Source: a bacterium
GTDB lineage: Bacteria > Zhuqueibacterota > Zhuqueibacteria > Residuimicrobiales > Krinioviventaceae
Direction: 5' to 3'
Assembly (NCBI GenBank): GCA_963693055.1
Contig: OY843751.1
Coordinates: forward strand, 2,016,001 to 2,080,000
Length of the DNA stretch: 64,000 nt
In this document: positions 21,927 through 30,253 of the stretch, in pieces
Layout of the letters: every line of letters begins with the position of its first letter
Position numbering within the stretch: the stretch's first letter is position 1
Notes under the pieces: generated by a model
Databases searched by the model: none
What the model saw: only the letters and a program-made list of their open reading frames with translations
What the model was told of the DNA's origin: nothing
Translations under genes and position numbers: made by a program

Positions 21927-22577
21927 GTGTTTAAAAAGATAATGTTATTTGTATTGTTGTTGATTTCTGGTTTCCAGTGTACAACCAATAAGGATCCGTT
22001 CAGCTCTAATATTGCAGAACCGGACACAGTCATTGACCGTAAACCCAATATTTATATCTATCCTCCAAGTGCTTGTGATATGACGTTGGCATTGTCCTTT
22101 CCCAAAGGGGGGCGTGTTACTGTTTCTGATCCTCCATACATAAATGGATGGTCATTTCATGTTGAGCCTTCGGGTTTGATTGATAACCAATATCGCTATC
22201 TGTATTATGAATCTGCTATTCCTGCAATAACTCAACCTGATGGATGGATTGTCAAGCGTTCATCTTTGAACGATTTTTTTGTGCAAAACATGCAGGCCTA
22301 TGGTTTTAATTCAACAGAGATAAAAGATTTTTTAGATTATTGGATTCCTCTGCTCAATGATCATTCTTATTATAAAATATGTCCGGTCTATACTGATCTG
22401 ATCGAACAGTATGTCAAATTTGAATTGTCAGTCATCCCCAACAGTGTGCTTCGTGTTGTTTACTTGATAGAAGGATTAAACGAAAACGAGCTGGTTAAGA
22501 TTCAAGAACCCGTAATTCCACTGTTTACGAGAAGCGGCTTTACTATAGTGGAATGGGGTGTGATTTATTCCGATTAA
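21927..22577 (+). CDS. Hypothetical lipoprotein, KPxIYxYP...EWG family (paralog 1)
   Basis: KPNIYIYP, YLYYE, EIKDFLDYW, P.SVLRV, F..VEWG. Confidence 0.75.
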   Translation: MFKKIMLFVLLLISGFQCTTNKDPFSSNIAEPDTVIDRKPNIYIYPPSACDMTLALSFPKGGRVTVSDPPYINGWSFHVEPSGLIDNQYRYLYYESAIPAITQPDGWIVKRSSLNDFFVQNMQAYGFNSTEIKDFLDYWIPLLNDHSYYKICPVYTDLIEQYVKFELSVIPNSVLRVVYLIEGLNENELVKIQEPVIPLFTRSGFTIVEWGVIYSD

Positions 22578-22592
22578 CCATTAGGGGGATTT

Positions 22593-23237
22593 ATGATGAA
22601 AAAGAACATGTTGTTGATCTTGATTCTATTTTCAGGATTTCAATGTACAACCAACAAAGATCCGGTTAGCACAAATACAACAGATACCGATACGCTCAAG
22701 GTTTATAAACCCAATATTTATCTGTATCCTCAAACTATTACAGATGTTTCCGTAAAACTGAATTTTCCCATGGGTGGCAGGGTTACTGTCTCAGTGCCTG
22801 AATATAATCAAGGTTGGGACGTAACTATATCATCTGATGGTATGATTGATGGTACATATGGGTATCTATTTTACGAATGTAATTTACCGTATTTTTCTGT
22901 TGAACAAAAATGGATTGTCTCTCATGATAGTTTAGAATCCTTTTTTGTTGATAATATGACAGCTTTTGGATTCAATGATTCTGAGATTCATGATTTTACT
23001 GTCTATTGGATGACTCGACTGCCTGAATATGATTACTATAAAATTTCCCCTCTTATGTCTCCCGAATTAGATTCTTATGTAGAGTTACAAATAGTGCCCG
23101 AACCGGATTCTGTATTACGACTGTTTTATGTAATTGCCCCAGCTTTAGAATTCTCAGAATCTGATCAAATTCAGATTCCACAATTTACAAGGGCAGGATT
23201 CTCAGTAGCCGAGTGGGGTGTAATTTTAATGCAGTAA
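22593..23237 (+). CDS. Hypothetical lipoprotein, KPxIYxYP...EWG family (paralog 2)
   Basis: Same motifs as 21927-22577; shared SGFQCTTNKDP. Confidence 0.75.
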   Translation: MMKKNMLLILILFSGFQCTTNKDPVSTNTTDTDTLKVYKPNIYLYPQTITDVSVKLNFPMGGRVTVSVPEYNQGWDVTISSDGMIDGTYGYLFYECNLPYFSVEQKWIVSHDSLESFFVDNMTAFGFNDSEIHDFTVYWMTRLPEYDYYKISPLMSPELDSYVELQIVPEPDSVLRLFYVIAPALEFSESDQIQIPQFTRAGFSVAEWGVILMQ

Positions 23238-26622: not shown

Positions 26623-28044
26623 ATGGAACGCAGAGAATTCTTTTCATCTGGATTGTTAATGGGAATAGGAACCTTGCCGGCAAGTTACGGGATCGCAGGA
26701 GAGGTTAAGTCCTCTACAAATGAGCTGTTGGATGTAATACTTACCATGCCTAATTTTTGTAGTCACGAGCATTGGGGCAGTGTTGCATCCATCGGTAATA
26801 ACAAAAATGGATATCTTGCCGATTTCAAACCCGGTGCGTTACCTTCAAAAAAGACAAACCTGGTTGATCTGATTATCGATCCCTATATGACTGGGAATTT
26901 GCACAACAATGGTATTTCTCCGGATAAAATTGTACTGGATAATGGGACCAAAGCTGATATCTTTCCACTGGCGCAAAAGAATAGTGCCGGGTGTGTACCC
27001 TTGCTCCGAAAAATCCTTGCTCCACAACAGTTCACCGGTATTTATATGTGCTTGCGGGAGGGAGTACGGTTTGCTTATGATATGGATATCCATGAAATGG
27101 ATGCTGACCTGTTTCGTCAAACCAGTCAAACTGTTGCCGCAAATTATGCCGATTTGTTCGGTTGGTACAAGAGACTTATGGAAAAAGCACATTTTACCCG
27201 GCTGATACGTCCTGTTCATCCCGAGTTTTATTTTTCAACCAATACTATGCAGGCTGCCGCAGAAATGGCCTTTACCGATACGGTTTTGCGTATTGATCCG
27301 TTATTAGACATGTATAAAGATTCTGAAAGAAGGCAAAATCTAACCCGGTTAACCGGAGTAGAGCCTGTGGATGCGGCATCATGGCGGTTGTTTCTTGAAA
27401 AGATATTTCAAGCGGCAAGCGATAGAGAGGCTGTAGGCATCAAACAGCTGCAGGCTTATCGTCGCGATCTGGATTTTGCAGTACATGAGGACTCTGATAT
27501 AAAGTTTGATGGTGCCTCAACAAAAGAAGAAAAAATCTTTTTTAAAGACTGGGTTGTAAATGAATGTTGCAAACTGGCAGATGATTTGAACTGGCCGCAT
27601 CAGGTGCATGTGGGTACCGACAATATGCCCCATTCAAACCCGTTACCATTGGCTGCATTGGCCCGCAGATATAGAAATCAAAAGATTGTCATGCTCCATT
27701 GCTGGCCGTTTTTACAGGAATCCGCGTATCTTGCCAAGAAGCACCCCAATATCTATATCGACATTTGTTGGCAGCCCATTCTGAATCCCGAGTTTCTGGT
27801 ACAGTCACTCGGACTCTGGTTGAACTATGTTCCCCTGAACAAGATCACCATGGGCAATGACGCCACATCCATCGAAATGGCGGTAGGATCGTCAATACTT
27901 GCAAAGCATATACTCGCTTCTGTGCTGGACCGTTTTGGCGCAAATAGCAATATTGAGAAAAATCAACTATTACAAACAGCGCTTGATTTTCTACACAACA
28001 ATGCGGTACATATTTATAAAGTCGGTAATGTTAAATTTATTTAG
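26623..28044 (+). CDS. Tat-exported amidohydrolase-superfamily protein
   Basis: RREFF Tat motif; SHEH, HQVHVG, LHCWP, GND. Confidence 0.8.
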   Translation: MERREFFSSGLLMGIGTLPASYGIAGEVKSSTNELLDVILTMPNFCSHEHWGSVASIGNNKNGYLADFKPGALPSKKTNLVDLIIDPYMTGNLHNNGISPDKIVLDNGTKADIFPLAQKNSAGCVPLLRKILAPQQFTGIYMCLREGVRFAYDMDIHEMDADLFRQTSQTVAANYADLFGWYKRLMEKAHFTRLIRPVHPEFYFSTNTMQAAAEMAFTDTVLRIDPLLDMYKDSERRQNLTRLTGVEPVDAASWRLFLEKIFQAASDREAVGIKQLQAYRRDLDFAVHEDSDIKFDGASTKEEKIFFKDWVVNECCKLADDLNWPHQVHVGTDNMPHSNPLPLAALARRYRNQKIVMLHCWPFLQESAYLAKKHPNIYIDICWQPILNPEFLVQSLGLWLNYVPLNKITMGNDATSIEMAVGSSILAKHILASVLDRFGANSNIEKNQLLQTALDFLHNNAVHIYKVGNVKFI

Positions 28045-28060
28045 ATTTCTGGTTCTCAAC

Positions 28061-28091
28061 TAACCACGAAATACGCGAAACAACACGGAAA
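28061..28091 (+). repeat. Left arm of imperfect inverted repeat flanking GxxExxY gene
   Basis: TAACCACGAAATACGCGAAACAACACGGAAA, internal ~9-10 nt period. Confidence 0.75.
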
Positions 28092-28210
28092 CAAATTTTA
28101 AATATCCTTTTTGATTTTTTAATGTAAGTAGTAAAAATGTGATCATTTAATTTTATTTAATAACCAATATTCATTCTGAACAACTGGAAAATGAATAAAA
28201 AGGGGGAGAA

Positions 28211-28588
28211 ATGTCGTTAATATACGGGGCTGAGAGTTATAAAGTTCTTGGTGCATGTTTTGAAGTGTATACTGAATTGGGATGTGGTTTCTTGGAAGCA
28301 GTGTATCAGGAGAGTCTGGAATTAGAATTGAAAATGCAAGGGATTCCTTTTTTGTCACAGCAAGGGATCGATATCCATTATAAAAACCAAAAACTTTTTC
28401 AAAAATATATACCTGATTTTATTTGTTTTTCCAAGATAATTCTTGAAATCAAGGCAGTAAAAGAGTTGTCCGATATTCATCGAGCTCAGTTGATAAATTC
28501 CTTAAAAATAACAGGATATAAAGTTGGTTATCTTGTAAACTTTAGTCATTATCCTAAATTAGAGTATGAAAGAATGGTGTACACTTGA
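28211..28588 (+). CDS. GxxExxY protein (PD-(D/E)XK nuclease-like)
   Basis: LGCGFLEAVYQESL, PDFIC, LEIKAV, AQLINSLK.T, LVNF. Confidence 0.92.
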   Translation: MSLIYGAESYKVLGACFEVYTELGCGFLEAVYQESLELELKMQGIPFLSQQGIDIHYKNQKLFQKYIPDFICFSKIILEIKAVKELSDIHRAQLINSLKITGYKVGYLVNFSHYPKLEYERMVYT

Positions 28589-28732
28589 TTATGGACAAGA
28601 AGAAAATGATTGATCATATAACCACAATAATTAGGTCTAGCATTGGAAAAATATTAATAATAAGTGTAAGATTTAATTTTAGGATAATCCAGTCTTAAAT
28701 TTGAGATTTAAATTTACAAAAAATTAGTAAAT

Positions 28733-28763
28733 TTTCCCGTGTGTTTAGTGTATTCCGTTGTTA
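28733..28763 (-). repeat. Right arm of imperfect inverted repeat flanking GxxExxY gene
   Basis: Reverse complement is TAACAACGGAATACACTAAACACACGGGAAA, about 25/31 identical to the left arm. Confidence 0.75.
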
Positions 28764-28933
28764 AACTTTTTTTATGTTTTCTTTGCGTTTAGTAGAAAAT
28801 TGATAGATTATATAATGTCTAACTGTTTGTTTTTGATTGTTTTCGTAGCATAATTTATTCTCTTGCATTTTTTGATGAAATCTTGTTATTTAATTTAAAT
28901 TAATACTACACTTGTTTAGTAAAGGGATTTTCT

Positions 28934-30253
28934 ATGAAGCGTAAGTTAATATTTGTTGTGTTGATTTTGGGTATATTTTGTTTTGATTTATTCGCCGGGG
29001 AATACTTTACGCCCATGTTCAACGGACAAGATCTCTCCGGATGGGTGAATGTCAACTGTGCACCAGAAACCTGGACTGTTGAAGACGGTATGATCAAATG
29101 TACCGGGTTGCCAATAGGAGTATTGCGAACTGAACAAATGTATGAAAATTTTATCATGGAACTGGACTATAAGCATATGCAGGAAAAAGGCAATGCCGGT
29201 GTGTTTATCCATTCTGCTCCATTGCCGGTAACGGGCAAGCCCTTTACCAAATCTCACGAAATTCAGATTCTCGACGGTCGCTATACGGAAAATTATACCA
29301 GCGACGGAGATATCTTTTCAATCCAGGGCGCGTTTATGGTGCCGAATCCCATCCATCCTAACGGTTGGATGCGCTCATTGCCGCAGGAGCGACGTGCGAA
29401 TCCGGTAGGCGAGTGGAACCATTATCGCATTGAGAGCAGAGACGGTACAGTAACCCTGGCTGTTAATGGCAAGGTTGTAACCCGTGCATATGATTTGAAT
29501 CCTCGCAAAGGTTATATTTGTCTGGAAGCTGAGGGAGCTTTGATCTATTTTCGTGATGTCAAGATCATGGAACTGCCGGGTACGAATCCCCCTCAGGATG
29601 TTATTGCAGAATCTGACAATGGATTTGTTTCTCTGTTTACAGGACTTGATCTGCGCGGTTGGAAACAGGTCCCCGGCAATAAAGACCACTGGCTTGTCAA
29701 AGACGGAGTGATTGTCTATGATGGTAAAAGTGAGGCAGAGGGAGAAGACAAACATCTGTGGACAGAAAAATCTTATGGTAATTTTATATTCATGGTAGAC
29801 TGGCGTCAGCCCATGGAGCCTTTTGTTGATAATGTACCGGTTATTTTACCTGATGGATCTACCCTTAAGGATGAAAAGGGCAAAGAAATCACGATACCGG
29901 TCAAAGATGCTGGCGACAGTGGCATATACATTCGTGGACATTCAAAGAATCAAATCAATATCTGGAACTGGCCGGTAGGTTCGGGTGAGATTTGGGGATA
30001 TCGTACTGATCAGTCCATGCCGCCACATATAAGACGAGATGCTACTCCGATAGTAAATGCTGATAATCCCATTGGCAAATGGAACCGGTTTGTAATAACC
30101 GTAATAGATGAAACAGTATCCGTTGAGCTTAATGGCGTTACGGTTATCCGAAATGCACATCTTCCGGGTATGGCGAAAACAGGGCCAATTGCATTACAGC
30201 ATCATGGAGACCCGATCGAGTTTACCAATATTTATATCAAGGAATTAAAATAA
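28934..30253 (+). CDS. Tandem DUF1080 (3-keto-disaccharide hydrolase) domain protein, secreted
   Basis: Two repeats: FNGQDLSGW...GEWNHY...GYICLEAEG and FTGLDLRGW...GKWNRF...GPIALQHHG. Confidence 0.9.
   Translation: MKRKLIFVVLILGIFCFDLFAGEYFTPMFNGQDLSGWVNVNCAPETWTVEDGMIKCTGLPIGVLRTEQMYENFIMELDYKHMQEKGNAGVFIHSAPLPVTGKPFTKSHEIQILDGRYTENYTSDGDIFSIQGAFMVPNPIHPNGWMRSLPQERRANPVGEWNHYRIESRDGTVTLAVNGKVVTRAYDLNPRKGYICLEAEGALIYFRDVKIMELPGTNPPQDVIAESDNGFVSLFTGLDLRGWKQVPGNKDHWLVKDGVIVYDGKSEAEGEDKHLWTEKSYGNFIFMVDWRQPMEPFVDNVPVILPDGSTLKDEKGKEITIPVKDAGDSGIYIRGHSKNQINIWNWPVGSGEIWGYRTDQSMPPHIRRDATPIVNADNPIGKWNRFVITVIDETVSVELNGVTVIRNAHLPGMAKTGPIALQHHGDPIEFTNIYIKELK

What the first reader, a model, noticed from the sequence alone, without database searches (positions are those of the whole stretch)
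28061..28763. GxxExxY nuclease gene enclosed by periodic inverted repeats: candidate minimal selfish or excisable element
Seen: a lone GxxExxY gene (28211-28588) with AT-rich spacers of 120-145 nt is bracketed by ~31-bp imperfect inverted repeats (left TAACCACGAAATACGCGAAACAACACGGAAA; right, reverse-complemented, TAACAACGGAATACACTAAACACACGGGAAA). Each arm consists of three ~9-10 nt units (CACGAAATA-like), and at least one mismatch is a G-U wobble. The cassette looks more AT-rich than the co-oriented catabolic genes on either side and starts 17 nt after the amidohydrolase stop. Known: GxxExxY proteins have a PD-(D/E)XK nuclease-like fold and no established function. Inference: a transposase-free mobile cassette whose arms are recognised by the nuclease, or that pair in mRNA to loop the gene out, as intervening sequences do.
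Basis: partly seen in the sequence, partly recalled or inferred. Interest (0 to 1): 0.72.

Follow-up and report, generated by a model that had tools for sequence, protein, structure and literature searches.

The report
Nuclease gene between self-matched repeat arms
A tiny gene with the fold of a DNA-cutting enzyme sits between mirror-image runs of a 7-letter DNA word that changes in step with the protein across many bacterial phyla and marks spots where genes come and go, which suggests a likely selfish gene-and-repeat system that I could not find in print, seen here in a probably decaying copy.

Summary
The GxxExxY gene (28211-28588) lies between inverted arms of three phased 7-base words, matching at 25 of 31 columns. 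All 5 copies in this genome have such arms, as do 58 of 73 nearest relatives from 11 named phyla; 51 of those 58 use the same A-ending word type. Word letters track the protein tree and two residues of helix 1. A same-genus genome has an unrelated gene and no arms at this site. Only 2 of 10 GxxExxY sites hold the same gene in both genomes, and arm-bearing junctions border gene-content changes about 8 times more often (odds). The mRNA-pairing/IVS idea is unsupported: G-U bias 32 vs 43 and 28 vs 28. I found no target duplication or fixed breakpoint, so this is not a classical transposon. The protein has a Cas4/RecB-like nuclease fold; this copy carries Y97S and a worn right arm. Best reading: a selfish nuclease that likely binds its own words and provokes recombinational exchange. 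No activity is shown. The scan has reported this association before in other genomes; my literature searches found no description.

The parts
28061..28091 (+). Left arm: three phased 7-base words (motif C-R-C-N-R-A, here ending in A), periods 9 and 10 nt, first word at 28065
28202..28208 (+). G-rich Shine-Dalgarno-like stretch before the ATG. No convincing promoter or terminator in the cassette, so expression is likely by read-through from the amidohydrolase gene (inferred)
   Evidence: sequence; (3 promoter-like sites vs 6.0 expected, 0 terminators)
28211..28588 (+). GxxExxY gene, 125 aa, PD-(D/E)XK fold closest to Cas4 SSO0001. D69, E79 and K81 are intact; the QxxxY motif is changed to QxxxS (Y97S)
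28733..28763 (-). Right arm: inverted, degenerate copy of the three-word array
26623..28044 (+). Upstream host gene (Amidohydro_2), shared with the same-genus genome G001; context only
28934..30253 (+). Downstream host gene (PF06439, 3-keto-disaccharide hydrolase), shared with G001; context only

Best explanation
The gene at 28211-28588 encodes a stand-alone small nuclease-fold protein (Cas4/RecB-like) and sits between two inverted arrays of a 7-base word; it is one, probably decaying, copy of a likely selfish gene-plus-arm family in which the protein likely binds its own word on DNA and would nick or resect next to the arms. Shown: the arm-gene-arm layout, its recurrence across phyla, matching of word type to protein clade and to helix-1 residues, dispersed gene-less arms, rapid turnover of the gene between two same-genus genomes, and enrichment of arms at junctions where gene content differs. 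Inferred: helix 1 reads the word; the 8-10 nt period lets several protomers load on roughly one face of the helix; the cut is repaired by host recombination between arms or by imprecise repair. That would copy, swap or delete whatever lies between arms (another GxxExxY gene, an unrelated gene, or nothing) without a target duplication. This copy has Y97S and a worn right arm, so it is likely weakened or inactive.
For: All 5 G000 copies have inward arms. A motif learned de novo on 37 loci finds both arms in 28 of 49 held-out loci vs 0 of 500 control ORFs at score 16. Among the 80 nearest relatives of this protein, 73 had full flanks; 58 of those have both arms and 51 of the 58 use A-ending words like the window. 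Left and right arms agree in the last letter in 58 of 59 loci (shuffle mean 29.6) and are more alike within a locus than type-preserving shuffles (18.4 vs 17.0 of 21; 0 of 3000). G-ending vs other words split on a 99% SH-aLRT branch of the protein tree. Thr9 goes with G at word position 5 in 116 of 123 units, replicated in 92 of 96 units in the second set. Asn21 goes with T at position 7 in 10 of 10 loci and 12 of 14 loci. Contrasts on all branches: 13 up, 1 down, 2 ties, and 10 up, 0 down, 1 tie. The model has pLDDT 93.9; its top match is Cas4 SSO0001 (Foldseek E 5.8e-4; Z 9.6, rmsd 3.5, 99 aligned). D69, E79, K81, Q93 and Y97 are conserved in 93-95 of 97 proteins. Only 2 of 10 sites hold the same gene in G000 and G001; others keep an arm and swap the interior. 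Five of 13 copies have a lesion at D69/E79/K81/Q93/Y97. Arm-bearing junctions border gene-content change in 31 of 41 cases vs 114 of 403. Excess arms per Mb: median 17.1 in 83 genomes with a strong-scoring gene vs 2.6 (22 genomes, weak hits only) and 2.7 (8 genomes, none).
Against: No binding, cleavage or movement is shown. Breakpoints near arms are diffuse (offsets -113 to +163 and -210 to +146), with no target duplication or clean empty site. On starred branches only, the residue-base tests are underpowered (4-5 pairs, p 0.25-1), and each column was picked after an MI scan of one set. Among carriers, arm density does not follow gene number (rho 0.12, p 0.27), and some genomes without the gene still have up to 11.9 excess arms per Mb. 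Arm-bearing junctions also hold other repeat families, so arms may gather at hot spots rather than cause them. None of 59 accessory gene runs in G001 had inward arms on both sides; 14 had an arm on at least one side, 11 inward vs 4 outward. Both arms were missed in 21 of 49 held-out loci; some clades use a different word (listing).
Confidence: 0.58

Rival explanations
1. The arms are operator-like binding sites and the protein is mainly a DNA-binding regulator or protector of its own cassette; movement is passive, by host recombination at hot spots.
For: Phased direct words and residue-base covariation fit binding. There is no fixed breakpoint. Hot spots also carry other repeats.
Against: Catalytic D, E, K and QxxxY are conserved in 93-95 of 97 proteins. 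Copies are lesioned often (5 of 13), turn over fast and are scattered across phyla, which fits a selfish element better than a host regulator.
Confidence: 0.15
2. A precise REP/RAYT- or MITE-like transposition system in which the nuclease, alone or with another enzyme, excises and reinserts arm-bounded units at defined junctions, the traces having been blurred by age.
For: The layout parallels REPtrons and TIRtrons (PMC3733652, passages). There are 57 and 101 exact pattern matches in G000 and G001 vs 7 and 12 for the reversed control. G000 and G001 are about 87-93% identical, so junctions may have decayed.
Against: The protein has no HUH or DDE transposase signature. No target duplication or constant boundary was found. 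Copies within the genome are only 29-56% identical to the window protein.
Confidence: 0.15
3. The arms act as RNA: they pair in the mRNA to loop out or excise the gene, as intervening sequences do, or act as RNA processing or stability elements.
For: In the predicted minimum-energy fold, parts of the left arm pair with sequence at and just beyond the right arm. Arms of one locus are more alike than type-matched shuffles.
Against: There is no G-U bias on the mRNA strand (32 vs 43, p 0.25; 28 vs 28). Fold z-score is -0.62 and Rfam has no match. Solo arms occur in both orientations at co-oriented junctions (6 and 6). The site is an intergenic junction, not an interrupted gene.
Confidence: 0.08
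4. A chance inverted repeat in AT-rich DNA.
For: The local score is reached by 9 of 1000 shuffles.
Against: Recurrence at 5 of 5 copies here, 58 of 73 relatives and 0 of 500 control ORFs.
Confidence: 0.01

Closest known systems
REP/REPIN repeats with RAYT genes (REPtrons) and TIRtrons (PMC3733652, passages read; PMC5581495, abstract and outline read)
   Same: An enzyme gene is flanked by its cognate inverted repeats, gene-less copies lie in intergenic DNA, and repeat types match enzyme types.
   Different: The enzyme is a 125-aa PD-(D/E)XK nuclease, not a tyrosine (HUH) transposase. Arms are phased direct words, not tagged palindromes. The gene is multicopy, turns over fast and is scattered across phyla, whereas RAYTs are mostly single-copy and vertically inherited (PMC5581495 abstract).
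Cas4/RecB-family nucleases (SSO0001, PDB 4ic1; lambda exonuclease, 3slp)
   Same: Best structural match; RecB motifs II and III and QxxxY are present in the family (motif definitions from PMC8610317, passages read).
   Different: There is no conserved four-cysteine iron-sulfur staple, the protein is much smaller, and no cas gene is among the neighbours scanned.
ORF-bearing 23S rRNA intervening sequences (PMC4990558, search listing and abstract start only)
   Same: A small ORF between inverted repeats.
   Different: Not in rRNA, no RNA-pairing signature, and the ORF is a nuclease-fold protein rather than the S23-like protein.
Insertion sequences with MITEs (general knowledge)
   Same: Inward terminal repeats and non-autonomous copies.
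   Different: No transposase, no near-identical copies, no target duplication found.
Intergenic heptamer direct repeats of Beggiatoaceae, Cyanobacteria and Bacteroidetes (PMC4679880, abstract and passages read)
   Same: Horizontally spread intergenic short-word arrays with no known mechanism.
   Different: Period 7 and a different word. The main text has no occurrence of 'endonuclease' or 'helix bundle'. Those repeats look more like the 7-nt arrays round the four-helix-bundle gene of this genome.

Membership tests
GxxExxY family (TIGR04256 / PF13366) | Profile score above the curated cut-off | tested here: met
   134.6 bits vs 35; 134.1 vs 22
PD-(D/E)XK, RecB-like nucleases | Fold and catalytic D...E-x-K | tested here: met
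   D69, E79, K81; Cas4 4ic1 Z 9.6, rmsd 3.5, 99 aligned
PD-(D/E)XK, RecB-like nucleases | QxxxY motif | tested here: not met
   This copy has Ser97; Tyr in 80 of 80 nearest relatives and 94 of 97 phylum proteins. Met by the family, not by this copy.
PD-(D/E)XK, RecB-like nucleases | Nuclease activity | not testable with these tools
   Needs an assay
Cas4 family | Four conserved cysteines binding an Fe-S cluster | tested here: not met
   No cysteine among the conserved columns
REP/RAYT (REPtron, TIRtron) | Tyrosine (HUH Y1) transposase | tested here: not met
REP/RAYT (REPtron, TIRtron) | Gene flanked by repeats that are abundant elsewhere in intergenic DNA | tested here: met
   82 arms at up to 1 mismatch; 9 inward pairs vs 0.25 expected; 57 exact matches vs 7 control
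REP/RAYT (REPtron, TIRtron) | Typically single copy and vertically inherited | tested here: not met
   5 and 8 copies; 2 of 10 sites shared; nearest relatives spread over many phyla
Insertion sequence / MITE | Target-site duplication and fixed ends | tested here: inconclusive
   None found and breakpoints diffuse, but the comparison genome is only about 87-93% identical
Insertion sequence / MITE | Transposase gene and near-identical copies | tested here: not met
   The three G000 paralogues in the alignment are 29-56% identical to the window protein; no transposase profile
rRNA intervening sequence | Inserted in an rRNA gene | tested here: not met
   Lies between two protein genes; no Rfam match at 27900-29000
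rRNA intervening sequence | Arms selected to pair as RNA | tested here: not met
   G-U-compatible mismatches 32 vs 43 and 28 vs 28
rRNA intervening sequence | Excised from the transcript | not testable with these tools
   No RNA holder listed
Free-standing homing endonuclease | Cleavage site in a conserved empty allele | tested here: inconclusive
   G001 holds another gene at the site, not an empty allele; the metagenome scan gave only homologues of the neighbouring gene at 53% identity or less
Integron cassette array | Integron integrase and attC sites | not tested
   An array of genes separated by back-to-back arms was seen in G001; no integrase search was run

The most novel reading that the evidence does not exclude
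GxxExxY proteins are the engines of a previously undescribed class of mobile DNA. A 125-residue Cas4-like nuclease reads phased 7-base words through a simple helix-1 code, cuts beside them and drives recombinational exchange of whatever lies between arms. The dispersed arms then act as an integrase-free system of gene-swap sites, and the residue-base code makes the specificity predictable.
Probability: 0.35. Interest if true: 0.9.

Novelty: new variant of a known kind. Interest (0 to 1): 0.72.

Why it matters
GxxExxY/PF13366 is listed as 'Unknown' in the PD-(D/E)XK survey (PMC3424549, passage), yet it occurs in 105 of 113 genomes of this phylum. The arms give the family a specific candidate substrate, and the helix-1 covariation gives a direct specificity test. 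If the nuclease drives exchange at arms, it would account for a dispersed repeat family of tens to hundreds of copies per genome. It would also add a route of accessory-gene turnover that needs neither a transposase nor an integrase.

Tried and rejected
Search for a clean empty site: G001 has an unrelated open frame of 174 codons at this junction and homology breaks inside both flanking genes. The metagenome scan with the amidohydrolase returned 43 loci at 53% identity or less, too distant to use. Target duplications and a fixed cut position: not found. A large inversion between G000 and G001 was suspected to end at arms; the one junction resolved had none. A smaller rearrangement near G000 6.08-6.12 Mb has arms at the one junction seen and is unresolved. 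Sequencing runs: no RNA holder listed. Contigs of three runs from one sample, possibly the source, showed no joint and no other letters; this is no evidence either way. Homodimer prediction: no answer. A sequence search of the PDB gave nothing below E 0.47. The wide VIA fold search could not be run because the machine was busy. A genome-collection scan with the alignment found no usable conserved stretch. Independent-pair tests on starred branches were underpowered. No residue rule emerged for word positions 2 or 4. The reversed-flank control (8 of 73) is probably inflated, because reversed periodic arms partly rematch the motif. A fuzzy-regex genome scan timed out.

Full report
1. Observation. 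The ORF 28211-28588 (125 aa) passes TIGR04256 and PF13366. It lies between co-oriented Amidohydro_2 and PF06439 genes. The arms at 28061-28091 and 28733-28763 align at 25 of 31 columns. Alone this is modest: 9 of 1000 shuffles score as high. One of five mismatches is G-U on the mRNA strand and two are G-U only on the other strand. GC is 0.29 in the cassette vs 0.43-0.44 in the neighbours.

2. Own genome (G000, 6.5 Mb, one contig). There are five GxxExxY genes and each has inward three-word arms of its own flavour. A degenerate scan found 82 arms at up to one mismatch, with 9 inward pairs vs 0.25 expected; it also found 4 outward and 9 same-direction pairs, so arms cluster in general. An exact pattern gave 57 matches vs 7 for the reversed control; G001 gave 101 vs 12.

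3. Same-genus genome G001. The flanking genes are 87-93% identical, but the junction holds an unrelated open frame of 174 codons and no arms. G001 has 8 GxxExxY genes. Of 10 sites over both genomes, 2 hold the same gene. At one, the left arm is shared and the GxxExxY gene differs (L004/L028). At one, both outer arms are shared and G000 has an unrelated ORF inside (L034). At two, the other genome has arms without the gene (L029, L001/L037). At L035, G000 keeps only part of the left arm. In 74 blocks of 20 kb of G001, partly chosen for arm density, junctions of 100 bp or more with arms border a gene-content change in 31 of 41 cases vs 114 of 403 without (odds ratio 7.9); junctions are not independent. 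Only 15 of 117 arms in 80 blocks lie inside continuous alignments, and breakpoints are diffuse with no target duplication. None of 59 accessory runs was enclosed by inward arms on both sides, so cargo capture between paired arms rests on single cases.

4. Across genomes. I used 100 GxxExxY loci: G000 and G001 copies plus top-scoring phylum hits (88 of about 600 matches, so biased to canonical genes); L035 was dropped for a frame mis-call. Of these, 86 had full flanks. A motif learned on 37 (C-R-C-N-R-A-G/T/A, period mostly 8-10) found both arms in 28 of 49 held-out loci vs 0 of 500 control ORFs. Of the best 80 of 578 relatives of the window protein, 7 had short flanks; 58 of 73 have both arms and 72 have at least one. 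These 58 span 11 named phyla, and 51 use A-ending words like the window, none G-ending. Across 113 phylum genomes, arm excess is 17.1 per Mb in the 83 with a strong hit vs 2.6 and 2.7 in the 22 with weak hits and the 8 with none. There is no correlation with gene number among carriers; kin are not independent.

5. DNA word or RNA stem? Left and right arms agree in word letters (last letter 58 of 59; second letter 57 of 59) and are more alike within loci than type-matched shuffles. Mismatches show no G-U preference on the mRNA strand (32 vs 43; 28 vs 28). The cassette RNA folds no better than shuffles and Rfam has no hit. This argues for a DNA recognition word and against the IVS reading.

6. 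Protein. The AlphaFold model (pLDDT 93.9) matches Cas4 SSO0001 best (E 5.8e-4; Z 9.6), then lambda exonuclease and other PD-(D/E)XK folds; a shared fold does not show function. D69, E79, K81, Q93 and Y97 are conserved in 93-95 of 97 proteins. QxxxY is reported as critical for activity in Cas4 relatives (PMC8610317, passages). The window copy has Ser97 against Tyr in 80 of 80 nearest relatives, and 5 of 13 copies in G000/G001 have a lesion at one of these positions. On a tree of 97 proteins (L032, L033, L199 left out as orthologues or near-duplicates), G-ending words and the rest split on a 99% branch, and the window protein falls in an A-word group of 11 (support 94). Thr9 predicts G at word position 5 (116 of 123 units; replicated 92 of 96), Asn21 predicts T at position 7 (10 of 10 loci; 12 of 14), and residue 13 refines position 5 in the second set. 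All three lie on helix 1 (residues 2-23); their spacing of 4 and 8 would put them on roughly one face, which I inferred from periodicity and did not measure. Contrasts on all branches give 13:1 (2 ties) and 10:0 (1 tie). On starred branches alone the tests cannot reach significance.

7. Mechanism. Shown: layout, recurrence, covariation, turnover and association with variable junctions. Inferred: binding by helix 1, cooperative loading on phased words, a nick or resection, and host recombination that copies, swaps or deletes the interior. Confidence 0.58. Rivals: binding-only with passive movement 0.15, precise transposition 0.15, RNA action 0.08.

8. Literature. A full-text search for GxxExxY gave 3 papers, 2 listed; I read the passage in PMC8934634, which is incidental, and saw only the listing of PMC12085832. 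PDDEXK_3/PF13366/TIGR04256 gave 2 papers; PMC3424549 lists the function as unknown. Searches on four-helix-bundle and inverted repeats, STRR, REPIN/RAYT, Cas4 and heptamer repeats showed no description of this gene-arm link in listings. I also read passages of PMC3733652, PMC4679880 and bioRxiv 309039 and the abstract of PMC5581495. The library lacks most subscription papers and I opened no supplements; the REPtron/TIRtron supplements of PMC3733652 could bear on novelty. Earlier AI notes of this scan report the same association in other genomes; they were leads, and the tests above are my own.

9. Verdict. This is a real member of a widespread, apparently undescribed nuclease-plus-arm family. 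It resembles REPtrons in layout but fails their enzyme and inheritance tests, and this copy is probably decaying. Interest 0.72.

Noticed in passing
G001:C3:37726-44274 (L041-L044): An array of accessory genes separated by back-to-back arm palindromes, where G000 (4601510-4602433) has a single different ORF and one partial arm. It looks like a cassette array.
   Followed up: partly
G000:C1:4596721-4597044 (L006): A four-helix-bundle (TIGR02436) gene flanked by inward 7-nt-period arrays, a parallel gene-plus-arm layout; the second such gene (L007) shows no such arrays.
   Followed up: no
G000:C1:6492183-6492506 (L005) and G001 L033: The catalytic Lys codon is a stop in the G000 copy while the G001 orthologue is intact; in the other orthologous pair the G001 copy has E79V.
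   Followed up: yes
Phylum genomes G050-G066 (families f18-f23): Many carry one weak-scoring GxxExxY hit (E about 1e-28) and almost no arms, possibly an arm-less, domesticated subfamily.
   Followed up: no
G000:C1:6076778-6122334: A segment rearranged relative to G001, with similar arms in inverted orientation near its ends; only one junction was examined.
   Followed up: partly
L153, L155, L171, L178, L186, L189, L197: GxxExxY clades flanked by a different phased word that the learned motif misses (listing, 'none' groups).
   Followed up: no
G001:C3:1849765-1851040 (L065-L068): Three tandem units of about 410 bp, each ending in an arm, mixed with another repeat family that has several copies in G000.
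   Followed up: no
window 21927-23237: Two adjacent paralogous ORFs (216 and 214 aa) with lipoprotein-like N-termini.
   Followed up: no
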